In this document: positions 5,930 through 26,512 of the stretch, piece by piece
How positions within the stretch are numbered: the first letter of the stretch is position 1
Layout: every line of letters starts with the position of its first letter
Origin: Bellilinea caldifistulae
GTDB taxonomy: Bacteria; Chloroflexota; Anaerolineae; Anaerolineales; Anaerolineaceae
Length of the DNA: 32,000 nt
Assembly: GCF_001306055.1 (NCBI RefSeq)
Contig: NZ_LGHJ01000006.1
Coordinates: forward strand, 60,001-92,000
Direction: 5' to 3'
Notes under the pieces: model-generated
Seen by the model: the letters and a program-made list of their open reading frames with translations, nothing else
Databases searched by the model: none
What the model was told of the DNA's origin: nothing
Position numbers and translations under genes: made by a program

Positions 5930-7045
5930 ATGAGCAGTGTCCGCGTACTGGTTGGCACCCGGAAGGGAGCCTTTATTCTATCGTCCGACGGCAAACGGCA
6001 AAACTGGCAGGTGGACGGGCCACACTTTGGCGGGTGGGAAATCTTCCATCTCAAAGGCTCGGCGGTTGATCCCAATCGAATTTATGCCTCACAGGCAAGT
6101 GAGTGGTTCGGACAGGTCATGCACCGCTCGGATGATGGCGGCAAAACCTGGCAGACGGTTGGTAATCAGTTTCAATACCGCGGCGAGGTCGGCAGCCACC
6201 AGTGGTTTGATGGAAGCATCAAGCCGTGGACCTTTCGCCGCGTCTGGCATCTGGAACCTTCTCCGCTGGACGCCGATACGGTCTTTGCCGGGGTGGAAGA
6301 TGCCGCTCTGTTCCGCTCGACGGACGGCGGGCAAACGTGGGAAGAATTGAACGGGCTGCGCCAGCACGGCACAAGCGCCGACTGGCATCCCGGAGCGGGC
6401 GGTCTGTGTTTGCACACCATTCTGCTCGACCCGCAAAACCCGCGGCGGATGTTCGTTGCCATTTCGGCAGCCGGCGCTTTCCGCAGTGATGATGGCGGTG
6501 AAAGTTGGTTGCCCATCAACCGCGGGTTGAAATCGGATTACATTCCCGACCCAGAGGCGGAATTTGGTCATTGCGTTCACCGGATTGCCCTGCACCCCGC
6601 CCGTCCGCAGGTTTTGTTCATGCAGAAACACTGGGATGTGATGCGCAGTGATGATGCCGGAGAACACTGGTACGAAATCAGCGGTAACTTACCCAGCGAT
6701 TTTGGTTTTGTGGTGGCGGTTCATGCGCACGAGCCGGATACCCTCTACGTTTTACCCATCAAAAGCGACTCGGAACACTACCCGCCCGAAGGAAAATTGC
6801 GGGTGTACCGCAGCCGAACGGGTGGAAACGAGTGGGAGGCGCTCACCCACGGTTTACCCCAGCAAAATTGCTACGTCAACGTCCTGAGAGACGCCATGGC
6901 GGTGGATGAACTCGATCCGGGCGGGGTGTACTTTGGCACCACCGGCGGGCAGGTGTATGTTTCAGCGGATGGCGGGGATCACTGGCAGTCCATCGTCCAC
7001 GATTTACCGGCCGTGCTTTCGGTTGAGGTGCAAACCCTGCCATGA
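5930..7045 (+). CDS. Cytoplasmic BNR/Asp-box repeat beta-propeller protein (sialidase-fold / Ycf48-like)
   Basis: Six Asp-box-like motifs: [52 protein letters not shown]. No signal peptide is visible. SD AAAGGAG at 5914-5920. Confidence 0.75.
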
Positions 7046-7395: not shown

Positions 7396-7468
7396 GCCGA
7401 GATAGCTCAGTTGGTAGAGCACGCGACTGAAAATTGCGGTGTCGCCAGTTCGATTCTGGCTCTCGGCA
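7396..7468 (+). tRNA. tRNA-Phe: tRNA-Phe (anticodon GAA)
   Basis: Cloverleaf folded by hand: acceptor GCCGAGA/TCTCGGC, D arm GCTC-AGTTGGTA-GAGC, anticodon stem CGCGA/TTGCG with loop CTGAAAA, T arm GCCAG-TTCGATT-CTGGC, discriminator A. The 3' CCA is not encoded (next bases are CAC). Confidence 0.9.
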
Positions 7469-7471
7469 CAC

Positions 7472-7498
7472 CCCCCGCTCCCTGCGCGGGGGTTTTTT
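7472..7498 (+). terminator. Rho-independent terminator after tRNA-Phe
   Basis: Stem CCCCCGC (7472-7478) pairs with GCGGGGG (7486-7492). The loop is 7 nt and is followed by TTTTTT (7493-7498). Confidence 0.8.
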
Positions 7499-7529
7499 CT
7501 TCCCGCAAAACTCTGTTAGAATCAGAGGA

Positions 7530-8924
7530 ATGAACCACCTTACCAAACGATGGACTCTGGCAGCCGGTTTGTGCGTGCTGATTGGCAGTGTTCTGCTTTT
7601 CTTCGGCTTGCAGCGGCCGGTTACGCTGGTGGTAGATGGTCAACCTTATAGCCTATTCAGCCGTGCCTTTTCGGTGCGTGCTGTGCTGGCTGAGAGCGGT
7701 CTCCCCATCCATGAAGCCGACCGGATTACTCCCCCCTTGAACGCCGCGCTCGGCTGGGAAGCGGCCGTCCGGGTGGACCACGCCCGGCCGGTGCAGATTT
7801 TGGACACGGCATCCGGCAAAACTTTTTCTTTGACAACCGCCGAACGCATCCCGGCCAACCTGCTGGCGCAGGCCGGTCTGCGCTTGTTCCCGGCCGACCG
7901 GCTGGAATGGAACGGTGCGCCCTTCGACCCGGCTTCTCCCTTGCCGGATGCCCCTGCCTACCTGCTGGTTTACCGCCCGGCAACCCGTGTGGAAGTCATC
8001 CTCGACGGTCAACGCCTGCAACTGATTTCGGCACAGCCCACGTTGCTGGGTGCGCTGAACGAAGCCGGTATTCTTCTGCGGGCGGCTGACCAGCTCTCGC
8101 TGCCGGTTGACACCCCGCTCACCGGCAAGCCGCTGAGCCTGACCATTGAACCGGCCCGCACTGTGCAAATCATCGCCGACGGCAAAACCCACCTCTACCC
8201 GGTCAACGCCGAAACCGTCGGCGAGGCGCTGGCGCAAGCCGATATACCCCTGCAGAATCAGGATTACAGCATCCCCGCCGAAGACCAGCCCATCCCACCC
8301 GACCGGATCATCCGCGTGGTGCGGGTGCGTGAGGAAGTACTGCTGGAACAGAAACCGATCCCCTTCAAGTCCACCTACCAACCCGACCCCAACACCGAAC
8401 TGGATCAGCGTTCGGTGGTCAGAGCCGGGGAACTGGGGGTGGAAGTTTCGCGGGTGCGCGTGCGCTACGAGGATGGTATCGAGATCAGCCGCCAGAGTGA
8501 GGCGAGCTGGGTTGCCAAACAACCGGTGGATCAGGTGCTGGGTTACGGCACGCAGGTGGTGGTGCGCACGCTGGAAACGCCGGAAGGAACGATTGAGTAC
8601 TGGCGCAAAGTGACCGCGTTTGCCACCTCATACCACCCCTGCGGATTCAAGGCCGGCTGTTCCTACACGACCGCCAGCGGGGCAACCCTGCAAAAAGGGA
8701 TTGTGGCCGTCACCCGGGCGTGGTACTCGTGGATGCGCGGTCAGCGGGTCTACATTCCCGGCTACGGTTCGGCGGTGGTAGCCGATACCGGCGGCGGCTA
8801 CCCTGACGGGCGCAACTGGATTGATTTGGGCTACTCGGACGCCGATTACGTCCCGTGGGCCAGTTATGTCGAAGTCTATTTCCTCACCCCGGTACCGGCC
8901 AATATCCCATGGATCCTGCCCTGA
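7530..8924 (+). CDS. YabE-like cell-wall protein (3x DUF348, G5 domain, 3D/DPBB domain)
   Basis: N-terminal TM anchor. Three DUF348-like repeats (VTLVVDGQPY..., VEVILDGQRL..., VQIIADGKTH...). A G5-like segment (EQKPIPFKSTYQPDPNTELDQRSVVRAGELGVEV). The C-terminal 3D domain reads TASGATLQKGIVAV...VADTGGG...WIDLGYSD. Start taken at ATG 7530; the longer ORF from 7434 overlaps the tRNA and its terminator. Confidence 0.75.
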   Translation: MNHLTKRWTLAAGLCVLIGSVLLFFGLQRPVTLVVDGQPYSLFSRAFSVRAVLAESGLPIHEADRITPPLNAALGWEAAVRVDHARPVQILDTASGKTFSLTTAERIPANLLAQAGLRLFPADRLEWNGAPFDPASPLPDAPAYLLVYRPATRVEVILDGQRLQLISAQPTLLGALNEAGILLRAADQLSLPVDTPLTGKPLSLTIEPARTVQIIADGKTHLYPVNAETVGEALAQADIPLQNQDYSIPAEDQPIPPDRIIRVVRVREEVLLEQKPIPFKSTYQPDPNTELDQRSVVRAGELGVEVSRVRVRYEDGIEISRQSEASWVAKQPVDQVLGYGTQVVVRTLETPEGTIEYWRKVTAFATSYHPCGFKAGCSYTTASGATLQKGIVAVTRAWYSWMRGQRVYIPGYGSAVVADTGGGYPDGRNWIDLGYSDADYVPWASYVEVYFLTPVPANIPWILP

Positions 8925-9907: not shown

Positions 9908-11974
9908 GTGAAACGCCATCTGCTTTTTGTGTGGGCAGGTTTGGTCATGCTGCTGGCACTCCTGGCGGCCTGTACATCTGCCCCAACCACCCCACCGCCC
10001 CTACCCACCCAGCCGGAAGCCACCCGCGCCGAAGAAGCGCCGGCCGAGCTGGATGCCGCCGCTCTGCTGCAAAAAGGCGGCTGCGGGGCGTGCCACGTCA
10101 TCCCCGGCGTGCCGGGCGCAGTCGGGGTGATTGGCCCCGACCTTTCTCAAATCGGGCTGACGGCTGCCGAGCGCATTCAAGATGCTGCTTACACCGGTAC
10201 TGCCAAAACCGCCCTCGATTATCTGCACGAGTCCATTGTTAACCCGGATGTCTTTCTGGCGCCGGACTGCAACGGCGCTCCCTGCCAGAAAGGACTGATG
10301 ACCGCCGCACTGGCGGCCCAGTTCAATGAAGCCGAGCTGAACGCCATTGTTTCTTATCTGGCCGGCCTGAAAGGCGAAACCCCGCCGACTGGCGGCGTGG
10401 AGGCCACCCCCGCCGTTGAATTGGGCGAAGCCCCCGTCTTGACCACCGAAGAATTTGAGCAGGCCCGCCAGATCTTCTTCGACCGCTGCGCCGGATGCCA
10501 CGGGGTGCTGCGCAATGGCGCCACCGGCCCGGCGTTGACCCCCGACAAGACCCTGCCCAAAGGTACCCTGGCCCTGGCTTCGATCATCTTCAACGGCACG
10601 CCGCGGGGTATGCCGGACTGGGGCAAGCAGGGTGTGTTGACTGCCGAACAAGCCGAATTGATGGCGAAGTACATCCAGAACGAGCCGCCTGCTCCGCCGG
10701 AAATGTCCATGGAGCAGATGCGTGGCTTCTGGAAGGTGCTGGTTGCCCCCGAAGACCGCCCGACCGAGCCTCAGCACACCCGCAATTGGGAGAATTTCTT
10801 TGCCGTCACCCTGCGTGATGCCGGTCAGGTGGCAGTGATTGATGGGGATACCTACGAAGTGGTGGCCACTGTCAACACCGGTTACGCCGTCCACATTTCG
10901 CGCATGTCGGCCACCGGACGGTATGTATACACCATCGGGCGCGACGGTAAAACCGCGCTGATTGACCTGTGGATGGACCCCCCGGCTGTGGTTGCCGAGG
11001 TTAAAACCTGCTACGACGCCCGCTCGGTGGAGGTGAGCAAGTACAACGGTCCGGAAGGCGACTTCACCGACCGCTACGCTATCGTCGGCTGTTACTGGCC
11101 GCCCCATTTTGTGATTGTGGACGGGTTGACCCTGGAACCGCTTAAAGTCGTCAGCACGCGCAGTTACACCTATGACACGCAGGAATATCACCCCGAGCCG
11201 CGGGTTGCCAGTATTGTCGCTTCGCATTTCAGCCCCAAGTGGGTGGTCAATGTCAAGGAGACCGGTCAAATCTGGCTGGTGGACTACACCGATGTGCAGA
11301 ACCCGGCGATTAAGATGCTCAACGCCGAGCGCTTCCTCCACGATGGTGGATGGGATGCCAGCGGCCGCTATTTCCTTGTGGCAGCCAACAATGCCAATAA
11401 GATTGTGGTGCTGGATGTGCAGGAAGAGAAAGTTGCCGCAATTGTGGAGACCGAGAAGATACCCCACCCCGGGCGCGGAGCCAACTGGATTGACCCGGTT
11501 TTTGGACCGGTATGGAGCACCTCGCATCTGGGTGAAGGCGCGCTGGTTGCCATCGGTACCGATCCGGTCAATCACCCCGAATACGCCTGGAAAGTGGTGC
11601 GCACCATTCCGCTGCCCGGAGCCGGTTCGCTGTTCCTCAAAACTCATCCCAACAGTGATTGGATCTGGGTGGACCACACCCTCAACCCGGATGAGGAAAT
11701 TCAGCGGACGGTATGTGTGATTGCCAAAGCCAACCCGGTCGAGCCGTATAAATGCTGGCAGGTAGCCGATTACGGGCGGGCGGTTCACTTTGAGTACAAC
11801 ATGGAGGGAAATCAGGTGTGGGTGAGCGTGTGGGGGCGCGCCGATGATCCCGGTCGGACGGGTGAAATTGTCGTCTATGACGATAAGACCCTTGAAGAAA
11901 TTGCCCGCATTCCCAATCTGGTCACTCCAACCGGTAAGTTCAATGTTTACAATACGGTGAAGGACATTTATTAA
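9908..11974 (+). CDS. nirS: Cytochrome cd1 nitrite reductase NirS: lipoprotein form with an additional N-terminal c-type cytochrome domain
   Basis: GTG start 7 nt after AAGGAGG (9894-9900). Lipobox LLAAC. First haem-c site CGACH. Second site CAGCHGVLRNGATGPALTPD is the canonical NirS haem-c domain. The d1 propeller block FAVTLRDAGQVAVIDGDTYEVVATVNTGYAVHISRMSATGRYVYTIGRDGKTALIDLW closely matches my recollection of Pseudomonas NirS. Confidence 0.9.
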   Translation: MKRHLLFVWAGLVMLLALLAACTSAPTTPPPLPTQPEATRAEEAPAELDAAALLQKGGCGACHVIPGVPGAVGVIGPDLSQIGLTAAERIQDAAYTGTAKTALDYLHESIVNPDVFLAPDCNGAPCQKGLMTAALAAQFNEAELNAIVSYLAGLKGETPPTGGVEATPAVELGEAPVLTTEEFEQARQIFFDRCAGCHGVLRNGATGPALTPDKTLPKGTLALASIIFNGTPRGMPDWGKQGVLTAEQAELMAKYIQNEPPAPPEMSMEQMRGFWKVLVAPEDRPTEPQHTRNWENFFAVTLRDAGQVAVIDGDTYEVVATVNTGYAVHISRMSATGRYVYTIGRDGKTALIDLWMDPPAVVAEVKTCYDARSVEVSKYNGPEGDFTDRYAIVGCYWPPHFVIVDGLTLEPLKVVSTRSYTYDTQEYHPEPRVASIVASHFSPKWVVNVKETGQIWLVDYTDVQNPAIKMLNAERFLHDGGWDASGRYFLVAANNANKIVVLDVQEEKVAAIVETEKIPHPGRGANWIDPVFGPVWSTSHLGEGALVAIGTDPVNHPEYAWKVVRTIPLPGAGSLFLKTHPNSDWIWVDHTLNPDEEIQRTVCVIAKANPVEPYKCWQVADYGRAVHFEYNMEGNQVWVSVWGRADDPGRTGEIVVYDDKTLEEIARIPNLVTPTGKFNVYNTVKDIY

Positions 11975-12264: not shown

Positions 12265-12900
12265 TTGTTCATTACGTTTGAAGGACCGGAAGGCTCCGGT
12301 AAGACCACCCAAATCCACCCGCTGGCCGACTACCTGCGCACTGAGGGCTGGGATGTGCTCACCCTGCGCGAACCGGGCGGCACGCCGATCAGCGAACAGG
12401 TACGGGCTATTTTAATGAACCTCGCCAACACCGCCATGCACCCGCGCACCGAGATTCTGCTCTTTCTGGCTGCCCGCGCCCAACTGGTGGAGGAAGTCAT
12501 CCGTCCGGCGCTGGCACAGGGCAAAATTGTGCTGTGCGACCGTTACGCCGACTCGACCCTCGCTTATCAGGGTTACGGCCATGGGACCGATCTGGATACC
12601 CTGCGTCGGTTGCTCCACTTTGCCACCGGCGGCCTGCAGCCCGACCTGACATTTTTGCTGGATGTGGACCCGTTAATCGGTTTGCACCGCAAACGCAAAG
12701 AAGGTGAATGGAACCGGCTGGATGCCTGCGGTGAGCAATTCCACCAGCGCGTTCGCGATGGTTACCGTCTGCTGGCTCAGGCTGAACCTCAGCGCTGGAT
12801 CATCGTGGATGCCGCACAACCGCCGGATGCGGTACAATCGGTCTTGCGCCAGCACGTTCTGTCACGTTTGCGGACGCAAACCGCCCCAAACTCTGGATGA
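12265..12900 (+). CDS. tmk: dTMP (thymidylate) kinase
   Basis: FITFEGPEGSGKTTQ P-loop, REPGGT, DRYADSTLAYQGYG. TTG at 12265 is the only canonical start after the in-frame stop at 12238. Confidence 0.9.
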   Translation: MFITFEGPEGSGKTTQIHPLADYLRTEGWDVLTLREPGGTPISEQVRAILMNLANTAMHPRTEILLFLAARAQLVEEVIRPALAQGKIVLCDRYADSTLAYQGYGHGTDLDTLRRLLHFATGGLQPDLTFLLDVDPLIGLHRKRKEGEWNRLDACGEQFHQRVRDGYRLLAQAEPQRWIIVDAAQPPDAVQSVLRQHVLSRLRTQTAPNSG

Positions 12901-12925
12901 GAAAGGTTATTTTAGGTACTCAGTG

Positions 12926-14200
12926 ATGAAGAAACACCCCTTGTTGTGGATTGTCCTGTTGATTGCCCTTGTGCTTTCGGCGTGTGCGCCGGCTGCCACT
13001 TCAACCCCGGCCGAGCCGACCGCCGTGCCTACTCGCACACCCCGCCCGATGCCGGAAGGCACACCGATGGCCTGTACCCTGTTCAGTCTGTTCCCCGAAC
13101 CGCGTGACCCGGCATCGGTTAAACTGCCGCCGGTCAGCGATGCCGATTGGTCGCGCGGCGCAAAGAATGCCCGCCTGACACTGATTGAATACAGCGATTT
13201 TCAGTGCCCGTACTGCTCGCTGGCAGCTGGCTACTTGAAGGAATTTGAGCAAGCCAACCCCGATCAGGTACGGGTTGTCTTCCGCCATTTTCCGCTGACC
13301 TCGCACGATAAGGCGCTGCTGGCCGCTCAGGCAGCCGAGGCCGCCGGCTTGCAGGGCAAATTCTGGGAAATGCACGACTTTCTGTTCGATCAGGCTAACT
13401 GGCAGGTGTGGACGGCTCAGTCCAAAGCCGACTTTGAAAAGTGGCTGAATGAGCAGGCCGCTTCCATCGGACTGGATGCCGCCCGCTTCGGCCGAGACCT
13501 CAATTCCGAGGCAGTCGTCCGCAAAGTGGAAGGCACTTTCCAAAATGGCATGGACATGGGGCTGACCGGCACCCCTTCCCTGTTCGTCTTGATTGACGGT
13601 GAATTGATCTTCGTCCCCGAAGATCAGGTGCCGTATGACCCGGCCACGCTGGATGCCATCCTCAAACTCGCCACGCTGCGGGATATTCAGTTTGACCGCT
13701 GCCCGCCCATGGTGATTGATCAAAACAAACAATACACCGCCACGCTCAAAACCGAGAAGGGCGACATCAAAATCCGCCTGTTTGCCGATAAAGCCCCATT
13801 GGCGGTCAATTCGTTCGTCTTTCTGGCACGGATGGGCTACTTTGACGGGATGATCTTCCACCGCGTCCTGCCTGACTTTGTCGCGCAGACCGGCGATCCT
13901 TCCGGCACCGGCTTTGGTGGTCCCGGTTACCAATTCGCCAATGAGATCAGCGAAGATCTGAAATACGACCGGCCCGGTCTGGTGGGCATGGCCAATGCCG
14001 GGCCGGATACCAACGGCAGCCAGTTCTTCATCACTTACGCAGCCCTGCCGCAACTGGACGGCGGCTACACCATCTTTGGCGAAGTGATTGAGGGCATGGA
14101 CGTGGCCAAAGCTCTGACGGCCCGTGACCCGGCCAGCGCCGCCCCGCAGGACCTGCCGCCCGGCGATAAAATTCTTTCGGTGATCATCGAAGAGCAGTAA
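12926..14200 (+). CDS. Fusion lipoprotein: DsbA-like thioredoxin-fold oxidoreductase plus cyclophilin-type peptidyl-prolyl isomerase
   Basis: Lipobox LVLSAC. YSDFQCPYCS (CxxC) with the downstream GTPSLF cis-Pro loop indicates a DsbA-type domain. The C-terminal FHRVLPDFVAQTGDPSGTGFGGPGYQFANE...GLVGMANAGPDTNGSQFFITY is a cyclophilin signature. Start taken at ATG 12926. Confidence 0.8.
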   Translation: MKKHPLLWIVLLIALVLSACAPAATSTPAEPTAVPTRTPRPMPEGTPMACTLFSLFPEPRDPASVKLPPVSDADWSRGAKNARLTLIEYSDFQCPYCSLAAGYLKEFEQANPDQVRVVFRHFPLTSHDKALLAAQAAEAAGLQGKFWEMHDFLFDQANWQVWTAQSKADFEKWLNEQAASIGLDAARFGRDLNSEAVVRKVEGTFQNGMDMGLTGTPSLFVLIDGELIFVPEDQVPYDPATLDAILKLATLRDIQFDRCPPMVIDQNKQYTATLKTEKGDIKIRLFADKAPLAVNSFVFLARMGYFDGMIFHRVLPDFVAQTGDPSGTGFGGPGYQFANEISEDLKYDRPGLVGMANAGPDTNGSQFFITYAALPQLDGGYTIFGEVIEGMDVAKALTARDPASAAPQDLPPGDKILSVIIEEQ

Positions 14201-16376: not shown

Positions 16377-16405
16377 TTGAATTTCCAATTCTTAAGTTCT
16401 ATAAT
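16377..16405 (+). promoter_or_regulatory. Near-consensus sigma70 promoter of the PKD lipoprotein gene
   Basis: TTGAAT (16377-16382), 17-nt spacer, TATAAT (16400-16405), inside an AT-rich patch. A second TATAAT lies at 16441-16446. The leader to ATG 16533 is about 90-125 nt. Confidence 0.6.
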
Positions 16406-16532: not shown

Positions 16533-19157
16533 ATGAAACGCTTGTTATCTTCACTCGTGATCGTAGTCTGCTGTTTATCAGCATGTGTGGATATTCCTTC
16601 GCAATTCGGCGTTGATCTTAATGTAGAAACCAGCAGTGAACTGGGTCCGGATACCCTCGCCCGCATTGACGCCGTCAACCAGACTCTGGCAACCGGTGTG
16701 GAAGTTGGACCGGAAACCCGCCAGGTGGTTCGTGAACTCAACGAAACCATTCGCCAGGGGGTCAAGGCCGGTTTTGACGAAGCCACACTCTCGCGCGTGG
16801 ATGACCTGCTGCGGGTGGTCGAGGATGGCTTGAAGATTGGACTGGACCAAGAAACGCTGGACAGCATCAACGGAATCGTGGACGCCATGGACCGCATGCC
16901 CGGTAACTGGGAAATTGCTGCCACCGAAATTGTGCGCACGCTGGAACGCAGCGGCGGTACCCTCGCCGGGCGGATGGCGGATGAAGTCAAAACCGTGATG
17001 AACGAAGCCCGGTTGAACATGCAGCAGATGACCGCCATTGCCGGGACGGAATTCCGCTGCAATGTGGATTTTCTCGGCTCCAAGGCCGGGGCAACCGTCA
17101 ACGAATTCATCGGCCGCAGCATCATCGGCCGCTTGAAGAACATCCTCTCCGGTAAGCCGGCAAAGGAAGAAATTCCGACACCGTGGGTGTGTCAGGTCAT
17201 CCCGGAGCGCATCGAACTGATTCAGGTGGGCGGGCGGTTGATCTTTCAAGACGGTATTTTGACCCTGACCGGTTATAACTACGTGGAGGCAAACTCTCCG
17301 CGTGCCTACGTGGTGGATGAAGCCGGCAACCGGCTTGAGTCCATTCAGTTATTCCCCTACCGCACCAGCCCATATCAAATCCAGCTCAACCTGCAGGATT
17401 TGGATTTCAGCGCCATTCCGCCCCGTTCGCGGATTGTCTTTCAATGGCCGAACGTTCCGGAAACCAGCGGGGTGGCCATTCTGATGCCGGCGGTCAACCC
17501 TCCGGTGGCACGCTTTACATTCAGTCCCGCCGGCGGGAGCGCACCGTTGACCGTCCAGTTTACCGACACTTCTACCGGCGACCCCTCGCAGTGGTCCTGG
17601 TCGTTTGGGGATGGGGCAACCTCCAACGAACGCAATCCCACCCACACCTTCATGGAAGCCCGGCGTTATGAAGTTCAATTGACGGTTTCCAATCCGCTGG
17701 GTTCTTCAACCGTTTCGGAAGTGCTGGTGGTGGGCGAGCAGCTGGCGGCTGATTTCACCTTTACCCCCCGGCAGGGCGATGCTCCGCTGATCGTTGAATT
17801 TACCGATCGTTCGAGCGGCAACCCGACTGCATGGGAATGGGATTTCGGCGACGGCGAACGCTCCACCGAGCGCAACCCCATTCACGTGTATAATGTCCCC
17901 AATCCGGAGGGTTACACCGTGACTTTACGGGTGAGCAATGCGCAGGGAAGTGCGCTCAAAACCAACCCCGACCGGGTCATCGTCAAGGAGAAACTGGATG
18001 CCGATTTTACCGCCGATACCACCAGTGGGCGCGCGCCGCTGACCGTCAGGTTCCGCGATACTTCCAAAGGCAGCCAAATCACTGGCTGGTTGTGGGATTT
18101 TGGCGACGGCACTACCTCGACCGAGCGCAACCCCACCCACACCTTCACCGAAAACAGCCTCTACGATGTAAGCCTGACCGTTACCAACCCTGAAGGGCAA
18201 ACCAGCACCGAGGTCAAACGTGGTTACATCAACGCCTTCAAACTGGTCTACCTGCGTCCGGGCTTCATCACCATTCCTGTTTTCTCCGTGCTCAATGATT
18301 TACAGGCCTACACGCCGTCCTTCTCACTGGCAATGGGCGGTGAACAAAAGGACACCGGCATTTCTTCTGATCGCTATGTGTGCGGGATCATCGGTATTTC
18401 CGCCGTGGAGGGAGACATTCAGGAAGACGATGCCGGGGATATCCTCAAAGCATATCTGTTCCGGCAGTACAGCCCGGCGCTCGGAAAAGACTCGTGGTGG
18501 GTGACGGCTGACTTCCGCACTCACCGTGACAGAAAAGAACGCTGGAATATCAAACTGCTCTGTCTTGACCGAAAAACGGAGAATAGCGCTTTTGTGTACC
18601 GGGAATACACCGGCATGGAAGGCGGAAAACAGCACCTGACCGGACTCTCAACAGCGGACTACTTCTTCTGCGGGGTGGTGGGGCAGGCTGCTTTGTTCGG
18701 TGATATTCAGGAGAGCGGCGTTCAACCGGTGGTCTGGCAGGCGTATCTGGACGGCAGCGGCCCGGAGTGGAAAATCGTTGTGGATTTTGCCACCCACGGT
18801 GTTAACGAAACCTGGAATGTCAATGTGCTCTGCCTCAAGCGAGGTTCGTATCTGGCAACCGATAAACCGGCTTTTGTGACTCAGCATTTCAATTACCTGG
18901 CTCTGCCGGAGCCGCGCTTCCGCACCAGCATCCCGGTCAACGATTATTCCTGCGGTTTGGTGGGTGTTTCTGCCGAAAGGGGCGATATTCAAGAGAATGA
19001 CCGGCAGCCGATTTTGCTGCTTGCCGACATGATCCCGGATGGCAGTATCTGGGCAATCCGCACCTATTTCGCCTGGCACAATAAAGCCCCCGACTGGCAG
19101 GTGGACATGCTGTGTATCCACAATGAATACGTCAAGGGTGAAATTCCACCCCCGTAA
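16533..19157 (+). CDS. Large surface lipoprotein: helical N-region, Ig-like region, 3 PKD domains, 3 copies of an unassigned Cys-bracketed C-terminal repeat
   Basis: SD GGGAGGGGAGG lies before ATG 16533. Lipobox CLSAC. Three PKD domains (about 17508-18225), each with PL.V.F.D.S.G....W.WDFGDG..S.ERNP.H.Y/F. C-terminal repeats at 18369-19121. Confidence 0.8.
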   Translation: MKRLLSSLVIVVCCLSACVDIPSQFGVDLNVETSSELGPDTLARIDAVNQTLATGVEVGPETRQVVRELNETIRQGVKAGFDEATLSRVDDLLRVVEDGLKIGLDQETLDSINGIVDAMDRMPGNWEIAATEIVRTLERSGGTLAGRMADEVKTVMNEARLNMQQMTAIAGTEFRCNVDFLGSKAGATVNEFIGRSIIGRLKNILSGKPAKEEIPTPWVCQVIPERIELIQVGGRLIFQDGILTLTGYNYVEANSPRAYVVDEAGNRLESIQLFPYRTSPYQIQLNLQDLDFSAIPPRSRIVFQWPNVPETSGVAILMPAVNPPVARFTFSPAGGSAPLTVQFTDTSTGDPSQWSWSFGDGATSNERNPTHTFMEARRYEVQLTVSNPLGSSTVSEVLVVGEQLAADFTFTPRQGDAPLIVEFTDRSSGNPTAWEWDFGDGERSTERNPIHVYNVPNPEGYTVTLRVSNAQGSALKTNPDRVIVKEKLDADFTADTTSGRAPLTVRFRDTSKGSQITGWLWDFGDGTTSTERNPTHTFTENSLYDVSLTVTNPEGQTSTEVKRGYINAFKLVYLRPGFITIPVFSVLNDLQAYTPSFSLAMGGEQKDTGISSDRYVCGIIGISAVEGDIQEDDAGDILKAYLFRQYSPALGKDSWWVTADFRTHRDRKERWNIKLLCLDRKTENSAFVYREYTGMEGGKQHLTGLSTADYFFCGVVGQAALFGDIQESGVQPVVWQAYLDGSGPEWKIVVDFATHGVNETWNVNVLCLKRGSYLATDKPAFVTQHFNYLALPEPRFRTSIPVNDYSCGLVGVSAERGDIQENDRQPILLLADMIPDGSIWAIRTYFAWHNKAPDWQVDMLCIHNEYVKGEIPPP
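18369..19121 (+). repeat. Three tandem protein-level repeats (60-68 aa cores) of unknown family inside the PKD lipoprotein
   Basis: Cores at 18369-18572, 18657-18842 and 18942-19121. They share D(R)Y.(.)CG[ILV][IV]G..A..GDIQE...[ILV]......W.[IV]...F..H.....W.[IV]..LC[LI]. Confidence 0.7.
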
Positions 19158-19182
19158 ACAATCGGCCCGGCCAAACTCTTCC

Positions 19183-19217
19183 GAGGCGGTTGGGGGTTCA
19201 ACCGCCTCAACTTTTTT
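19183..19217 (+). terminator. Rho-independent terminator after the PKD lipoprotein gene
   Basis: GAGGCGGTT (19183-19191) pairs with AACCGCCTC (19200-19208). The loop is 8 nt, followed by AACTTTTTT. The T-tract overlaps the stop codon of the convergent gene. Confidence 0.75.
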
Positions 19218-20856
19218 ACCACCCGCTTGCCGCAAAGATGCTTTCCAGCAAGGCCTGTCGTTCCTCGGTGGTCATCGGACGCGAGCGCAGAAAATCCTCG
19301 AAGCGCAGGGTGAGCAGTTGCGTGCCGATGTACCGCCCTTCGTAGAAAACATGCCGGTCAACGAAGGCGCGCTCGAATGGTTCGCCCATCGAATACTGGT
19401 CAAAGAACAGGTTGCCCAACCCGTAGTGCAGAAAACTGCCGTCGTAAAATTCCATAGCCTGCGGCAGGTGCCCCTGACTGCCGGAGACAACCACCGCCCC
19501 CGCCTGAGCGACGCGCTCAAAATCTTCCACCGCTTGCGGCCGGGCGCTGAAGGTTTCGTATTCAAGGTGCGAAAAGGTTACAATCGGCAGGTAGCCCTCC
19601 GCCCGCAGGCGGGCAATTTCGGCGGTCAGCCGGTCGAAATCGCACAACACTGCGCCGGGGGACTCGGCTGAAGCCTTGGCGTAAGCCGGTCCTTTGGCGT
19701 TACAGCCGATGAAAGCGATGCGGTTGCCGTTGTGATCAAACAACGCCGGCTGCCAGCTCTCTTCCAGTGTTGCGCCGCCGCCGTAAGTCTGCCAGCCACG
19801 CCGGTGGTACTCTTGCAGGGTGAACAGCACATCCTCCGGCTGAGCGTCAATAAAGTGATCACCGGTCATCTCGACCACATCGGTGCCGACGGCTTCCAGC
19901 AGTTCAATCCAGCGGATGTCGCTGCACGGAAAGATGATCACTCCGGTTTCGTTCAACCCCTCCTCAGGTGGCGAACAATTCTCCCGGAAGGCCACTTCGT
20001 TGTTGATGTGGGTAATGTCCGCTTCTTTGAGCCAGTCGGTTACTTCGCCCAGGGCGTATTCCACCCCGTGCAGGCGCAGATACAGCGCGGTGGCGCGCAC
20101 CAGTGCCGTGACACCGGTCACCGCCACAACCGTCATCCGGTTTTCATCACGGTTGCCGGGCGGTATGCCGGCAGCCAGTTCCCCGGCATGGCTACCGCTC
20201 AAGGCATAGGGAATGGCCAGCGCGTAACCGGCTTCATCCAGACCGCGTTGCAGGGGTGAGAGACCGTCCACTGCCAGCACTTTCAGTTCGGGTTCAAGGC
20301 GCTCGAAGGGGACAATGCCGCGCGCTTCGGGTTGCTGCCAGAGCGCTTGCGTCATTCCCCCAAGCGGCACAACCCGAACGGTTGACTCGCCGGGCGCTCC
20401 CCACCAGCCGGTCAACATTGCCAGCGTATCGGGTTCAACCAGCAGAGGAAAAGCCGGATCGTCCAATCCATACCACGCCCGCTGCAGGCTGACCGAGGTG
20501 ATCCCGTCCTCCACCGTAGCAAAGCGGGCAACCAGCGCGTACACCCACCGGCCGGCCGGCAGTCCTTCCTCCCCCAGCCGCAGCTGAACATCGGCATCTG
20601 CAGAATGCTCGCTCAATTGCCAGCCGTTCGGCAATTGAACCGCCCCGCGCAAGCCGGGAGGCAGATGATCGTCCAGCCACACCCGCCGGGATGGCGAGGC
20701 TATCGGCTGTGGTTCATTGATCTTTGTTTGGGGCTGGAAAGGCGTGGGAGTCTCAATGCTGTTTAGATAAATCGGACGAAAGGAGGAAACTTCCGGTAAA
20801 ATCTGGCAGCCAGCCAGCCACACAATCCACAGCAGGTACCATAAATTGCGTTTCAT
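19216..20856 (-). CDS. CapA/PGA_cap-family (metallophosphatase-like) lipoprotein with an unassigned ~230-aa N-terminal domain
   Basis: Lipobox WLAGC. The C-terminal half shows ITHINNEVAF, VEMTGDH, IVTFSHLEYE, VVSGSQGHLPQ and HYGLGNLFFDQ. These are collinear with the CapA family motifs (N.E, H.G.E, GsHpH..Q, YslGNf.fdq) as I remember them. Confidence 0.65.
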   Translation of the reverse strand: MKRNLWYLLWIVWLAGCQILPEVSSFRPIYLNSIETPTPFQPQTKINEPQPIASPSRRVWLDDHLPPGLRGAVQLPNGWQLSEHSADADVQLRLGEEGLPAGRWVYALVARFATVEDGITSVSLQRAWYGLDDPAFPLLVEPDTLAMLTGWWGAPGESTVRVVPLGGMTQALWQQPEARGIVPFERLEPELKVLAVDGLSPLQRGLDEAGYALAIPYALSGSHAGELAAGIPPGNRDENRMTVVAVTGVTALVRATALYLRLHGVEYALGEVTDWLKEADITHINNEVAFRENCSPPEEGLNETGVIIFPCSDIRWIELLEAVGTDVVEMTGDHFIDAQPEDVLFTLQEYHRRGWQTYGGGATLEESWQPALFDHNGNRIAFIGCNAKGPAYAKASAESPGAVLCDFDRLTAEIARLRAEGYLPIVTFSHLEYETFSARPQAVEDFERVAQAGAVVVSGSQGHLPQAMEFYDGSFLHYGLGNLFFDQYSMGEPFERAFVDRHVFYEGRYIGTQLLTLRFEDFLRSRPMTTEERQALLESIFAASGW

Positions 20857-23174: not shown

Positions 23175-24269
23175 TTAGCGGGCGGCTGCAGCGCGCTTTT
23201 CCAGCGCCGAGCGAATCATCAAAAACTCACCAATGTTTTCCATGGTGACCAACCCGACCAGCTGCCCGTCGGCTACTACTGGCAGGGTGTGGCACTCGCG
23301 TTCCTGCAATTTGCGCGAGACTTCTTCCAGCATGTCGTTGATGTGGGCGCTTTCGAATTTACAGTCCATCGCCGCCGAAACCGGGGCGTTCTGCCCCAGC
23401 CGCTGAAGGGCATCCACCAGACTTTTGCGGGTCAAAATTCCCACTACGCGGTCACCCGAAAGCACGGGGAAGTCCTGCTGGGTACTGCTCATCAGCAGTT
23501 CAATGGCGCGGCTGAGCGGCTCGCCTTCCTGCAGGGTACGGAAATCGGTGACCATTGCCTGCGAAACCGGAATCCCGCTGAGGGCCGATTTCATCTGTAC
23601 CATGCTGGCTTCCTGGGCTGCGCCGATATAGACAAAGAAGGCGATGAACACCAGAAACGGATTGGTAAACAGACCGATGAAGCCAAACACAAACGCCAGG
23701 GCTTGACCGAGGGTGGCGGCTGCCTGAGTAGCCTGAGTGTAGGGCAGGCGGGTTGCCAGCAAAGCCCGCACCACCCGTCCGCCGTCCATTGGGAAGGCCG
23801 GAATCAGGTTGAAGCCCGCCAGAAACAGGTTAACCACCATCAATCTTTCAAGGAACGGCCCGCCGGTCATGCTCAGCGAACCGATTGGCTGCAATGTGCC
23901 GGTCAACAGCAACCCGATGAACAACACCGCTGAGATGACCACATTCACCAGCGGGCCGGCCAGCGCCACCCACAATTCCTGCATCGGTTTTTCCGGCATG
24001 CGTTCCAGTCGGGCTACACCGCCGATGGGCAGCAGGGTGATGTCTTTGGTTTGAATGCCAAAACGACGGGCGGCAAGGGCGTGGCCGAGTTCATGCAGCA
24101 CCACACACAAAAACAACGCCAGTAAAAAGCCAACCCCCACGGCTACCGCGTTGAGCGAACGCCCCACCAGATAGTAACTGAATGCCACCCAGCCCAAAAT
24201 CAACAGGAAAGTGGCATGGATTTGAATATCAATTCCTGCCACCCGTGCAATTTTCAACGACCATTTCAT
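23175..24269 (-). CDS. Site-2 protease family (M50) zinc metalloprotease with C-terminal CBS pair
   Basis: HELGHALAARRFGI (HExxH), LLPIGGVARLE, NLIPAFPMDGGR, followed by two CBS-like modules. SD GAGGA lies before ATG 24269. Confidence 0.85.
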   Translation of the reverse strand: MKWSLKIARVAGIDIQIHATFLLILGWVAFSYYLVGRSLNAVAVGVGFLLALFLCVVLHELGHALAARRFGIQTKDITLLPIGGVARLERMPEKPMQELWVALAGPLVNVVISAVLFIGLLLTGTLQPIGSLSMTGGPFLERLMVVNLFLAGFNLIPAFPMDGGRVVRALLATRLPYTQATQAAATLGQALAFVFGFIGLFTNPFLVFIAFFVYIGAAQEASMVQMKSALSGIPVSQAMVTDFRTLQEGEPLSRAIELLMSSTQQDFPVLSGDRVVGILTRKSLVDALQRLGQNAPVSAAMDCKFESAHINDMLEEVSRKLQERECHTLPVVADGQLVGLVTMENIGEFLMIRSALEKRAAAAR

Positions 24270-24539
24270 TTCTCATCCTCACTCACTTAAACTTTACTTG
24301 AACAATCAATGTCCATACGGATAACCTTATCTTACTATATTGATGAGTAAGTATCAATTTTTGATTAACGATCTGTATAAAGCATGTTAGTGAGCAAGTA
24401 AACTTCGTTGATGTTGAGAATGTATCTCCAAAGACAAAGGAGGTTACAATGTCCGAATGGATTTTCAATGATGAAAAAACAGCTCGAAGAAACACCATCA
24501 GATGATTCTTAACATGAAAATTTGATGAAAAGTTGCCTC

Positions 24540-24567
24540 TTGACTAGAACAAATATTCTGATAAAAT
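24540..24567 (+). promoter_or_regulatory. Promoter with embedded operator-like AGAAC-N4-ATTCT (copy 2 of the shared module)
   Basis: TTGACT (24540-24545), 16-nt spacer, TGaTAAAAT (24559-24567). A second TATAAT lies at 24575-24580. 27/29 identical to 5823-5851. Confidence 0.6.
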
Positions 24568-24670
24568 GGATGTATATAATCCAAATTAAGATTCGTCCTG
24601 ATCACGCATCCTCTCACCTCTCAGATGAATCCCTTACCGGCAATACCGGACCACCAAAGGAGTAAAAGGT

Positions 24671-25570
24671 ATGAATCCGATAAACCGTAAAATTGTTCCG
24701 TTTCTCTGGTATAACCAGGAAGCTGGCGAAGCAGCAAAGCTTTACCTGCACGCTTTTCCAGATTCGTCTCTTCGCAGTGTCACCACCTTTACTGAGACCC
24801 CCTCCGGCACTGTGAAAATTTATGCAGCCGATCTTTGGGACAGCGAGTTCCATTTGATGAGCGCCGGCCCGGAGTTTAAATTCACGCCGGTAATTTCTTT
24901 CCTGGTGGCTTGTAGTAGCGCAGCGGAGGTTGACAGTGTCTGGCAAAAACTCTCGCCGGAAGGTTCTGTGCTGATGGAACTGGGAAGTTATCCATTTAGT
25001 GAACGCTTTGGGTGGTTGCAGGATAAATACGGCGTATCGTGGCAGATGATGTTGTTTTCGGGAGATCGGCCCATCCGCCAGAGAATGATCCCGTTTTTGA
25101 TGTTTACCGGTCAACAGTTCGGCCGGGCAGAAGAAGCCATTCGTTTCTACGCCTCAATATTTCCGAACAGCGGTGTGGAGGAAATTCAACATTATGAAAA
25201 AGGAGAAGAACCAAATCAGCCCGGCACGGTTAAATTTGCCGAATTTACCCTGCATGGGCAGTCGTTTGCCGCCATAGACAGTTCCTATGAGCATGGTTTC
25301 ACTTTCAATGAAGCCATTTCGTTTGTGGTGAATTGCGAAACGCAAGAAGAAATTGATTATTATTGGGAAAAACTTTCGGCTGATCCCGAGGCGGAGATGT
25401 GCGGCTGGCTGAAGGATCGTTTTGGTGTATCATGGCAGATCGTCCCAACAATTATGTATGAAATGCAGCAGACAAATGACCCCATCCGGTTGACACGCTT
25501 GACCAGGGCCTTTCTCCAAATGAAGAAATTTGATATTGCTGCCTTAGAAAGGGCTTATGAAGGCAGCTGA
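24671..25570 (+). CDS. Tandem-domain VOC-superfamily protein (PhnB / 3-demethylubiquinone-9 3-methyltransferase-domain-like, PF06983-type, x2)
   Basis: Two homologous halves. Half 1: IVPFLWYNQEAGEAAKLY...FGWLQDKYGVSWQMM. Half 2: IPFLMFTGQQFGRAEEAIRFY...CGWLKDRFGVSWQIVP. SD AAAGGAG at 24655-24661. G+C is visibly lower than the flanking genes. Confidence 0.8.
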   Translation: MNPINRKIVPFLWYNQEAGEAAKLYLHAFPDSSLRSVTTFTETPSGTVKIYAADLWDSEFHLMSAGPEFKFTPVISFLVACSSAAEVDSVWQKLSPEGSVLMELGSYPFSERFGWLQDKYGVSWQMMLFSGDRPIRQRMIPFLMFTGQQFGRAEEAIRFYASIFPNSGVEEIQHYEKGEEPNQPGTVKFAEFTLHGQSFAAIDSSYEHGFTFNEAISFVVNCETQEEIDYYWEKLSADPEAEMCGWLKDRFGVSWQIVPTIMYEMQQTNDPIRLTRLTRAFLQMKKFDIAALERAYEGS

Positions 25571-25650
25571 TCGGTTAATTGAATTGGAGTGGATTTTTTC
25601 CGGCGGTAGAACCGGCCAGTGGTTTGGATAAGGGAGAAATCCGTTAATTG

Positions 25651-25692
25651 AATAAAATTCCTGCAGCCATCCTGTTCGTTGGGTGGCTGCAG
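25651..25692 (-). terminator. Rho-independent terminator of surE (possibly bidirectional)
   Basis: 12-bp stem CTGCAGCCATCC (25661-25672) pairs with GGGTGGCTGCAG (25681-25692), including one G-U pair. On the minus strand it is followed by GAATTTTATT. Confidence 0.7.
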
Positions 25693-25711
25693 TGCCGTGT
25701 GCGTTTTTCTG

Positions 25712-26512
25712 TTACGCCGACTCCAAAAGAGGATGACCGATTTCCTGATCCCACTCCCATTGATTCAATTCGGGGAAGAGGGAGTAGGCGGTCAGGTCGA
25801 GTTTAAGAGGGGTGATCGAAACAAAACCATCCGCCACGGCGCCGATGTCGCTGCCCCGTTCGGGAATGCCGGTTGGCGAGTCCCCGCTGATCCAGTAATA
25901 CGGGCGGCCGCGCGGGTCTACCCGCGAATCGAGTTTGTCGTGATACACGCGCAGTCCCATCCGGGTCAGACGGTAACCTTTGATTTGATTCATCGGTAAA
26001 AAGGGAATGTTGACATTCAGTAAATTCCCTTCCGGCAGGCCGTTCTGAATGACGGCGCGGGTGATCTGGCGGGCAACCTGCTCGGCAGCCTGAAAATCGG
26101 CCAGGGTGAGGTGGTTTTTGGGTGAATCGAGCGAGAAAGCAATCGCCGGCAGTCCCCAAATGGCTGCTTCCATCGCCGCGGTAACTGTCCCGGAGTAGGT
26201 GACATCATGCCCAAGGTTGGCGTAGGGGTTAATTCCGGAAACCACCAGATCCACTTTTTCGCCCAAAAAATTGCAGATTGCCAGTGCCACGCAGTCCGAA
26301 GGTGCGCCGTCAGTGGCAAAGGCGGAGGTGCCGTCTTCCAACGGCATTTCTTTGACTCGCAACGGCCGGTCAAGTGTTTTGACATGCCCGGAAGCCGACC
26401 AGTTGCGGTCAGGGGCCAGCACACTGACCTTGCCGAGCGGTCTGACCGCCTGCGCCAGCGCCAGCAGCCCCGGCGCGTGAATGCCGTCATCATTGGTGAC
26501 CAGAATGTGCAT
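25712..26512 (-). CDS. surE: 5'/3'-nucleotidase SurE
   Basis: The N-terminus MHILVTNDDGIHAPGLLAL and GINPYANLGHDVTYSGTVTAAMEA are canonical SurE blocks. SD GGGAGG lies before the ATG. Confidence 0.9.
   Translation of the reverse strand: MHILVTNDDGIHAPGLLALAQAVRPLGKVSVLAPDRNWSASGHVKTLDRPLRVKEMPLEDGTSAFATDGAPSDCVALAICNFLGEKVDLVVSGINPYANLGHDVTYSGTVTAAMEAAIWGLPAIAFSLDSPKNHLTLADFQAAEQVARQITRAVIQNGLPEGNLLNVNIPFLPMNQIKGYRLTRMGLRVYHDKLDSRVDPRGRPYYWISGDSPTGIPERGSDIGAVADGFVSITPLKLDLTAYSLFPELNQWEWDQEIGHPLLESA

What the first reader, a model, noticed from the sequence alone, without database searches (positions are those of the whole stretch)
18369..19121. Unassigned triple Cys-bracketed repeat domain at the C-terminus of the PKD lipoprotein
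After three clear PKD domains the protein ends in three modules of about 95 aa. Their cores align as follows. R1: DRYVCGIIGISAVEGDIQEDDAGDILKAYLF..SWWVTADFRTHRDRKERWNIKLLCLDR. R2: DYFFCGVVGQAALFGDIQESGVQPVVWQAYLD..EWKIVVDFATHGVNETWNVNVLCLKR. R3: DYSCGLVGVSAERGDIQENDRQPILLLADMI..IWAIRTYFAWHNKAPDWQVDMLCIHN. The invariant features are a Cys at each end (a likely intradomain disulfide), CG[ILV][IV]G, an acidic GDIQE loop (a possible Ca2+ or ligand site), an F..H pair and two Trp residues. Each core is preceded by a linker with a (S/P)AFV...(Y/F) strand. I cannot match this to any domain family I know. It sits at the distal, presumably ligand-facing end of a surface-anchored adhesin-like protein.
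Basis: seen in the sequence. Interest (0 to 1): 0.7.

Follow-up and report, generated by a model that had tools for sequence, protein, structure and literature searches.

The report
Single-chain tail-fibre-tip head on lipoprotein
The end of a Bellilinea surface lipoprotein carries three copies of an unnamed 90-residue module that probably pack into one three-fold head; single copies of the same module sit at the tips of tail fibres of phage-like injection machines, so the head is most likely a binding device built into one chain.

Summary
The 874-aa PKD lipoprotein of Bellilinea caldifistulae (ATG 16533 to stop 19157) ends in three homologous ~90-aa modules, with pairwise BLASTP E of 5e-16 to 8e-12. 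Each module has a Cys pair and a GDIQE loop. No Pfam, NCBIfam, PHROG or PDB sequence match covers them.

An exhaustive profile search found at least 350 clusters, in two architectures. One has tandem copies, three in 59 of 72 carriers and never more, mostly in secreted multidomain proteins. The other has one copy, at the extreme C-terminus in 71 of 80 carriers. Many single-copy carriers look like tail fibres, and two lie inside contractile-injection-system gene clusters.

AlphaFold2 models the three modules as one compact all-beta unit (pLDDT 92.9, pTM 0.90). Its best PDB match is the three-module PCSK9 C-terminal domain (Foldseek E 8e-5, TM ~0.4, ~10% identity). One module alone resembles pyocin or phage fibre tips and H-type lectins only weakly.

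The two Cys appear or vanish together (221 C/C, 34 neither, 9 mixed), which supports a disulfide.

Best reading: a single-chain pseudo-trimer of a tail-fibre receptor-binding tip, used as an adhesin head. It is a new, unnamed domain family of a known kind. The ligand is unknown.

The parts
16377..16405 (+). Promoter-like site upstream of the gene (TTGAAT-17-TATAAT)
   Evidence: Consensus scan, 10 of 12 matches. A consensus match only; the shuffles give about as many sites.
16533..16586 (+). Signal peptide with lipobox (MKRLLSSLVIVVCCLSAC); Cys at ORF aa 24 is the presumed lipidated residue
   Evidence: Sequence read directly. ATG 16533 is the start used in GenBank/RefSeq. No predictor was run.
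16587..17498 (+). N-terminal region of ~300 aa, unassigned, conserved among related lipoproteins (SELGPDTLxRID motif)
   Evidence: No Pfam, NCBIfam or PDB hit. The same N-terminal motif appears in P0015, P0016, P0053 and P0063.
17499..18239 (+). Three PKD domains (stalk); boundaries approximate
   Evidence: Pfam PKD_4 E=9.8e-47 and PKD E=1.6e-35, 3 stretches each.
18306..18572 (+). Module 1 (aa ~598-686): six strands, Cys623-Cys683, GDIQE at 633-637
   Evidence: HMM envelope 589-686. AF2 strands at model residues 26-109. BLASTP to modules 2 and 3.
18573..18842 (+). Module 2 (aa 687-776): six strands, Cys719-Cys773, GDIQE at 729-733
   Evidence: HMM envelope 687-776. AF2 of the three-module unit and of this module alone, pLDDT 90.8.
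18843..19124 (+). Module 3 (aa 777-870): six strands, Cys813-Cys867, GDIQE at 823-827. A short Pro-rich tail follows (EYVKGEIPPP, to 19154; stop 19155-19157)
   Evidence: HMM envelope 777-870. AF2 strands at model residues 211-299.
19183..19218 (+). Intrinsic-terminator-like hairpin (11-bp stem, 7 G-C) plus T-run
   Evidence: Scan. With the promoter-like site it suggests a monocistronic gene.

Best explanation
The last ~280 residues form one globular head. Three homologous six-stranded beta-sandwich modules, each probably pinned by one disulfide between the third and sixth strands, pack around a pseudo-threefold axis.

This head is the single-chain counterpart of a homotrimeric tip domain. That tip, in single copy, ends the tail fibres of extracellular contractile injection systems and related phage-like fibres. 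Tandem triplication lets a monomeric protein display the same three-fold binding surface without needing to trimerise.

In Bellilinea the head is tethered to the cell by a lipidated Cys. An unassigned ~300-aa region and three PKD domains hold it away from the membrane. It therefore most likely acts as an adhesin or receptor-binding head, with a cell-surface glycan as the most likely class of ligand.

Shown: the repeat; homology to the fibre-tip modules; the gene contexts; the Cys covariation; a confident compact model.
Inferred: the pseudo-threefold packing (model coordinates could not be inspected); trimerisation of the single-copy form; the binding function; the glycan ligand.
For: 1. Homology. 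A profile built only from window-type modules hits 350 cluster representatives at E<=1e-3 and 124 at E<=1e-10, out of 1.84 billion.
2. Two architectures among the best 152 carriers. Of the tandem carriers, 59 have three copies, 13 have two (mostly fragments) and none has more than three. The single copy lies at the extreme C-terminus in 71 of 80.
3. Single-copy carriers look like fibres. PHROG 'tail fiber protein' families hit 27 and 23 of 75, and Pfam Phage_tail_fib, Peptidase_S74 and Shufflon_N also occur. These hits lie in the N-terminal and shaft parts, which leaves the module as the distal tip.
4. Gene context. P0086 lies between Baseplate_J/Tail_P2_I and sheath/tube, with an AAA ATPase and eCIS_core nearby. 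P0127 lies between CIS spike/baseplate genes and CIS_TMP/AAA/eCIS_core.
5. Structure. AF2 of aa 577-880 gives pLDDT 92.9 and pTM 0.90, all-beta, six strands per module. Foldseek aligns ~280 columns to PCSK9 (E 8e-5 to 1e-3). One of these entries (2qtw) is titled with structural homology to resistin in the C-terminal domain. The next hits are the apicomplexan APC-beta domains.
6. A single module's top, non-significant, hits are all fibre tips or lectins that I know as homotrimers: R1/R2 pyocin fibre, phage AP22 gp53, HPA, HAA, SLL-2 and discoidin II.
7. Export. 35 of 44 complete tandem carriers have a signal-peptide-like N-terminus. Tandem modules keep both Cys in 188 of 189 cases, whereas 34 of 75 single-copy modules lack both. 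This is what I would expect for exported versus cytoplasm-assembled proteins.
8. Tail fibres are modelled as trimers and their C-terminal domains are treated as receptor-binding domains in the eCIS catalogue (PMC12923769).
Against: - I also could not confirm that the PCSK9 alignment falls on its C-terminal domain rather than its catalytic domain.
- TM-scores are only 0.38-0.40, and the single-module matches have E>=0.05.
- At least two apparently complete, signal-peptide-bearing proteins have two modules (P0030, P0047). This does not fit a strict rule of three.
- In 26 of 58 three-module carriers more sequence follows the triple, so it is not always distal.
- 25 of 62 single-copy carriers also have signal peptides and may not be fibres.
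- No hit in 50,697 GenBank phage genomes, and the one pattern-limited scan of IMG/VR found none. The phage link therefore rests on eCIS-type clusters and on PHROG hits to the shaft.
- No ligand evidence of any kind.
Confidence: 0.62

Rival explanations
1. The modules are a divergent branch of the H-type lectin family (HPA, SLL-2, discoidin type). They bind GalNAc/Gal-type sugars at the interfaces between modules.
For: Both folds are six-stranded beta-sandwiches. H-type lectins rank 4-8 and 45 in the single-module Foldseek list, with TM 0.36-0.43. H-lectin and 'SLL2-like lectin' domains are reported on eCIS fibres (PMC12923769).
Against: The Foldseek E-values are 0.13-1.5, not significant. No Pfam H_lectin hit in 133 carriers at E<=0.01, nor in 58 isolated modules at E<=10. 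hhalign of the module profile against an HPA/SLL-2 profile gives probability 1.1%, though that lectin profile holds only 5 sequences.
Confidence: 0.12
2. The region is a true homologue of the PCSK9 C-terminal (Cys/His-rich) domain or of resistin, and mediates protein-protein contacts.
For: It is the best Foldseek hit of the three-module model: E 8e-5, prob 1.0, ~280 aligned columns, and consistent across 15 or more PCSK9 entries.
Against: Identity is 8-10%, TM 0.34-0.40 and rmsd ~7 A. No sequence signal against PDB even at E<=10. The window has one Cys pair per module, against three disulfides per PCSK9 module (my knowledge). The family members that carry a source name are all bacterial. Independent triplication of a trimeric sandwich explains the likeness equally well.
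Confidence: 0.08
3. The three modules are ordinary tandem adhesin repeats (beads on a string, like the PKD domains before them) with no higher-order unit. Three is simply the commonest number.
For: Tandem Ig-like repeats are the norm in such proteins. Two-module proteins exist. AF2 can over-pack repeats.
Against: No carrier among the best 152 has more than three copies, and 59 have exactly three, unlike the variable numbers typical of bead repeats. pTM is 0.90 for 304 residues. The whole unit aligns to three-module PDB domains. The single-copy form sits on fibres that are treated as trimeric.
Confidence: 0.13
4. The gene is a remnant tail-fibre gene of a prophage or eCIS, not a cellular adhesin.
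For: Its modules are homologous to fibre tips.
Against: It has a lipobox signal peptide and a PKD stalk, and no baseplate-attachment N-terminus. It has its own promoter-like site and terminator. The neighbours are housekeeping genes (DsbA-cyclophilin, PrsW, DedA, PGA_cap, GrpB, SurE and others). The gene is conserved with the same length in Bellilinea MAGs, in a 23-member cluster.
Confidence: 0.03

Closest known systems
C-terminal receptor-binding tips of eCIS / phage-like tail fibres (catalogued by Nachmias et al. 2026, PMC12923769)
   Same: Single-copy homologues of the window's modules sit at the extreme C-terminus of fibre proteins encoded in eCIS clusters.
   Different: The window protein is a lipoprotein with a PKD stalk. 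It has no baseplate anchor and carries three copies in one chain. The catalogue's text does not name this fold, and six accession or organism terms taken from family members were not found in its supplements.
PCSK9 C-terminal (V / Cys-His-rich) domain, and resistin
   Same: Best structural match to the three-module unit. From my knowledge, that domain is three six-stranded sandwich modules in one chain around a pseudo-threefold axis, related to a protein (resistin) that forms homotrimers. This is the same single-copy versus triplicated logic.
   Different: ~10% identity, TM ~0.4, a different disulfide pattern, and no sequence signal. The likeness is probably analogy.
H-type lectins (Helix pomatia agglutinin, SLL-2, discoidin I/II; Pfam PF09458)
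   Same: A small six-stranded sandwich. These lectins form trimers (my knowledge). Weak fold matches, TM 0.36-0.43.
   Different: No HMM or profile-profile signal. Foldseek E>0.1.
R1/R2 pyocin fibre and Acinetobacter phage AP22 gp53 fibre tips (6cl5, 6cxb, 6ct8, 4mtm)
   Same: These are the top single-module Foldseek hits. They are distal domains of contractile-tail fibres.
   Different: E 0.05-0.6 and TM 0.31-0.36, so not significant. No sequence relation.
Apicomplexan perforin-like protein APC-beta domain (7pln, 5ouo, 6d7a)
   Same: The next hits after PCSK9 for the three-module unit. From my knowledge, this domain is three tandem Cys-containing beta repeats forming a pseudo-threefold prism.
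   Different: TM 0.24-0.31, rmsd 13-17 A. Shorter repeats, and eukaryotic.

Membership tests
PKD domain (stalk of the same protein) | Match to the Pfam PKD / PKD_4 HMM above the gathering score | tested here: met
   PKD_4 157.4 bits (cut-off 27) and PKD 121.4 bits, three stretches each. This applies to aa ~330-575 only, not to the finding.
H-type lectin (PF09458) | Sequence match to the family HMM | tested here: not met
   No H_lectin hit for the window protein, for 133 carriers at E<=0.01, or for 58 isolated modules at E<=10.
H-type lectin (PF09458) | Profile-profile similarity to bona fide members | tested here: not met
   hhalign of A6 against the HPA/CHA/SLL-2 profile A10: probability 1.1%, E 0.049. 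Against HPA alone: probability 0.2%. The lectin profile is shallow (5 sequences).
H-type lectin (PF09458) | Six-stranded beta-sandwich fold that superposes on HPA or SLL-2 | tested here: inconclusive
   The model has six strands. Foldseek to 2ce6, 2ccv, 4q56 and 3wmp gives E 0.13-0.19 and TM 0.36-0.43.
H-type lectin (PF09458) | Gal/GalNAc binding at protomer interfaces | not testable with these tools
   Needs coordinates and binding assays.
PCSK9 C-terminal domain / resistin-like | Three tandem six-stranded sandwich modules forming one compact unit | tested here: inconclusive
   AF2 pTM 0.90 with 6+6+6 strands. Foldseek E 8e-5, ~280 columns, TM 0.38-0.40. Coordinates and the aligned target range were not available for inspection.
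PCSK9 C-terminal domain / resistin-like | Cys-rich modules (three disulfides each; from my knowledge) | tested here: not met
   Exactly two Cys per module in the window. The family consensus has one Cys pair.
PCSK9 C-terminal domain / resistin-like | Detectable sequence homology | tested here: not met
   phmmer and hmmsearch against all PDB chains at E<=10 return no PCSK9 or resistin chain.
eCIS / phage-like tail-fibre tip domain (unnamed family defined here) | Sequence homology of the module to the C-terminal modules of fibre proteins | tested here: met
   The profile of window-type modules hits single-copy C-terminal modules at E 1e-19 to 1e-9 against 1.84 billion proteins. Shared motifs are T, (C)G..G, GDIxE, W, DF.TH and E.W.
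eCIS / phage-like tail-fibre protein (the whole protein) | Baseplate-attachment N-terminus and a position inside a CIS or phage tail gene cluster | tested here: not met
   The window protein has a lipobox and PKD domains instead. Its neighbours are housekeeping genes. It is met for the relatives P0086 and P0127.
eCIS / phage-like tail-fibre tip domain | Homotrimeric assembly of the single-copy form, equivalent to the three-module unit | not testable with these tools
   No multimer prediction and no model coordinates were available.
Bacterial lipoprotein | Signal peptide ending in a lipobox [LVI][ASTVI][GAS]C | tested here: met
   MKRLLSSLVIVVCCLSAC read directly. Related carriers have similar lipoboxes. 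No dedicated predictor was run.

The most novel reading that the evidence does not exclude
The modules define a previously unnamed receptor-binding domain superfamily shared by eCIS or phage-like tail-fibre tips and by bacterial surface proteins. In the surface proteins a homotrimeric fibre tip was converted, by tandem triplication, into a monomeric single-chain pseudo-trimer. This would be a bacterial parallel to resistin versus the PCSK9 C-terminal domain, and a natural 'single-chain' tail-fibre binding head.
Probability: 0.5. Interest if true: 0.65.

Novelty: new variant of a known kind. Interest (0 to 1): 0.55.

Why it matters
The result gives a name-worthy and sizeable family (at least 350 clusters at 50% identity) to what is now annotated only as 'PKD domain-containing protein' or 'hypothetical protein'.

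It links cell-surface adhesins of Chloroflexota and other bacteria to the receptor-binding tips of contractile injection systems.

If the pseudo-trimer reading holds, it is a natural example of turning an obligate trimeric fibre tip into a monomeric binder. That is useful for people who retarget eCIS, tailocins or phages, and for understanding how binding heads move between mobile machines and cellular proteins.

It does not by itself reveal a new mechanism. The ligand is unknown.

Tried and rejected
- Word-indexed protein searches found only 3 and 6 relatives. The family became visible only with the exhaustive profile search.
- tblastn of a single-copy module and of the window head against 50,697 GenBank phages: no match.
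- IMG/VR scan with a close-subfamily alignment: 149 pattern matches, none confirmed.
- BFVD Foldseek with the three-module model was uninformative (TM <=0.37, rmsd 9-17 A).
- PHROG hits of single-copy carriers turned out to lie in the shaft and N-terminus, not in the module.
- Mean identities between module positions 1, 2 and 3 of different proteins are flat (0.32-0.36). Only nearest neighbours are position-specific, so one versus several triplication events could not be decided.
- A paper search for a PCSK9/resistin link to tail fibres found nothing relevant.
- The eCIS catalogue's supplements did not contain the family members I looked for.
- The reverse-strand ORFs overlapping the region (18324-18635, 18648-19235) were dismissed as shadow ORFs of a GC-rich gene, because the + frame has PKD hits and many homologues.
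Full report
**The observation**

The window is chromosomal DNA of Bellilinea caldifistulae (Anaerolineae, Chloroflexota; GCA_001050215.2, DF967971.1). The ORF is annotated there as an 874-aa 'PKD domain-containing protein' starting at ATG 16533. Its translation begins MKRLLSSLVIVVCCLSAC, a lipobox-type signal peptide read by eye. Pfam finds three PKD domains at about aa 330-575 and nothing else. NCBIfam, PHROGs and PDB sequence searches find nothing for aa 586-880.

Pairwise BLASTP between the modules gives E=5e-16, 5e-15 and 8e-12 at 31-38% identity. The repeat is therefore real and far beyond chance.

Each module begins about 20 residues earlier with two further strands. The gene has a promoter-like site at 16377-16405 and a strong terminator-like hairpin at 19183-19208. 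Its neighbours are housekeeping genes: a DsbA-cyclophilin fusion, PrsW, DedA, PGA_cap, GrpB, SurE, KsgA and others. None is a phage or injection-system gene.

**The family**

A word-indexed search found only three relatives, all Anaerolinea-like. I then built a profile of 11 modules from the window and those three proteins and ran it exhaustively against 1.84 billion cluster representatives. It found 350 proteins at E<=1e-3 and 124 at E<=1e-10.

Re-scanning the best 152 locally showed two architectures:

| Modules per protein | Proteins |
|---|---|
| Three tandem | 59 |
| Two (mostly short fragments; P0030 and P0047 look complete) | 13 |
| More than three | 0 |
| One | 80 |

In 71 of the 80 single-module proteins the module is at the extreme C-terminus.

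Tandem carriers are large multidomain proteins with PKD, SH3_3, Big, He_PIG, fn3, PASTA and similar domains. 35 of 44 complete ones start with a signal-peptide-like segment, often with a lipobox. Several share the window's N-terminal SELGPDTLxRID motif.

No Pfam family covers the module in any of 133 carriers, nor in 58 isolated modules even at E<=10.

**The single-copy form**

Of 75 single-copy carriers, 27 and 23 hit the two commonest PHROG 'tail fiber protein' families. Pfam finds Phage_tail_fib, Peptidase_S74 and Shufflon_N in a few. These matches lie in the N-terminal and shaft parts, so the module is the unassigned distal tip.

Gene context confirms this for two members. P0086 is encoded between Baseplate_J/Tail_P2_I and sheath/tube genes, in a cluster that also has gp25, a spike protein, an AAA ATPase and eCIS_core. 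P0127 lies between CIS spike-tip and baseplate genes and CIS_TMP, AAA and eCIS_core. Two further members (Tolypothrix and an unnamed contig) lie beside DUF6603 and giant unassigned proteins.

A recent catalogue of eCIS fibres treats such fibres as trimers and their C-terminal domains as receptor-binding domains, many of them lectin-like. Its text does not name this fold (PMC12923769).

The family is absent from 50,697 GenBank phage genomes by tblastn, and the one pattern-limited scan of IMG/VR found nothing.

**Structure**

AlphaFold2 on aa 577-880 with a 24-sequence alignment gave pLDDT 92.9 and pTM 0.90. The model is all-beta with six strands per module. A pTM this high for 304 residues implies a fixed arrangement of the three modules.

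Foldseek against the PDB put 15 or more PCSK9 entries on top: E 8e-5 to 8e-3, probability 0.99-1.0, about 280 aligned columns, TM 0.34-0.40, 8-10% identity. One entry's title notes structural homology to resistin in the C-terminal domain. The next hits are the apicomplexan APC-beta domains.

From established knowledge, the PCSK9 C-terminal domain is three six-stranded sandwich modules with pseudo-threefold symmetry, and resistin is a homotrimer. That is the same relation I propose here between the triple and single-copy forms.

Module 2 modelled alone (58-sequence alignment) gave pLDDT 90.8 with six strands. It has no significant PDB match. Its best hits (E 0.05-0.2, TM 0.31-0.43) are R1/R2 pyocin fibres, phage AP22 gp53, Helix agglutinins, SLL-2 and discoidin II. 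From my knowledge these are all trimeric fibre tips or lectins.

I could not inspect coordinates. The packing geometry, and the assumption that the PCSK9 alignment falls on its C-terminal domain, are therefore inferences.

**Conserved features**

Across 264 modules the most conserved positions are:

| Position | Conservation |
|---|---|
| T | 85% |
| first C | 87% |
| G | 97% |
| G-D-I-x-E | 91 / 80 / 87 / 83% |
| W | 97% |
| F | 82% |
| E | 85% |
| W | 91% |
| last C | 84% |

The two Cys co-vary strongly: 221 modules have both, 34 have neither (mostly Ala...Phe) and 9 are mixed (Fisher p=5e-34, not corrected for the relatedness of the modules). Tandem modules have both in 188 of 189 cases, whereas 34 of 75 single-copy modules have neither. 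It also fits exported proteins versus fibres assembled in the cytoplasm.

GDIxE is kept in carriers of very different kinds. I therefore think it is structural (a tight acidic hairpin, possibly a metal site or a contact between modules) rather than the specificity determinant. This is untested.

**Membership tests**

- H-type lectin: no HMM hit. hhalign against a small HPA/SLL-2 profile gives probability 1.1%. The fold resemblance is weak. Not a demonstrable member.
- PCSK9/resistin: no sequence signal and a different Cys content. The architecture is shared. Homology is not supported.
- Tail-fibre tip: homology of the module is met. The window protein as a whole is not a fibre.

**Conclusion**

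The finding is a real and currently unnamed domain family. The best-supported reading (about 0.6) is a single-chain pseudo-trimer of an injection-system or phage-like tail-fibre tip. It would serve as the binding head of a lipid-anchored, PKD-stalked surface protein.

The rivals are ordinary bead repeats (0.13), a divergent H-type lectin (0.12), a true PCSK9/resistin homologue (0.08) and a fibre-gene remnant (0.03).

The ligand is unknown. A glycan is the default guess by analogy with fibre tips and lectins.

It is a new variant of a known kind, of moderate interest.

Noticed in passing
window 12704-14200 (+): A 498-aa protein fuses a DsbA-like thioredoxin domain to a cyclophilin-type prolyl isomerase. 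It lies three genes upstream of the disulfide-containing lipoprotein. No functional link was tested.
   Followed up: no
window 16587-17498 (+), aa 25-328 of the same protein: The ~300-aa region between the lipobox and the PKD domains is also unassigned. It is conserved in other three-module lipoproteins through the motif SELGPDTLxRID. It may be a second undescribed domain.
   Followed up: partly
window 24001-26000: GC drops to 0.47 against ~0.59 elsewhere. The stretch holds a 3-dmu-9_3-mt/glyoxalase-type gene (24671-25570) and part of surE. It may be a foreign insert.
   Followed up: partly
window 9908-11974 (+): A cytochrome cd1 nitrite-reductase-like protein (Cytochrom_D1 E=2e-131 plus a c-type cytochrome domain), in an organism I know as a strict fermentative anaerobe.
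   Followed up: no
P0030 (639 aa) and P0047 (263 aa), relatives from metagenomes: These apparently complete, signal-peptide-bearing proteins have only two modules. They are exceptions to the rule of three that the pseudo-trimer model does not explain.
   Followed up: partly
one of the 75 single-copy carriers in alignment A3: One carrier has a Shufflon_N (PilV-type pilin) N-terminus, E=6e-9. This suggests the module may also be used on a type IV pilus adhesin. I did not identify which protein it is.
   Followed up: no
L009 8792-11245 and L010 10001-12307: Single-copy carriers from Tolypothrix and an unnamed contig lie next to DUF6603 proteins and ~1,360-aa unassigned proteins. These may be a different, poorly annotated type of injection-system or fibre cluster.
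   Followed up: no
window 7434-8924 (+) and 5930-7045 (+): A DUF348 + G5 protein and a BNR/sortilin-type repeat protein. These are further predicted cell-envelope proteins in the same window.
   Followed up: no
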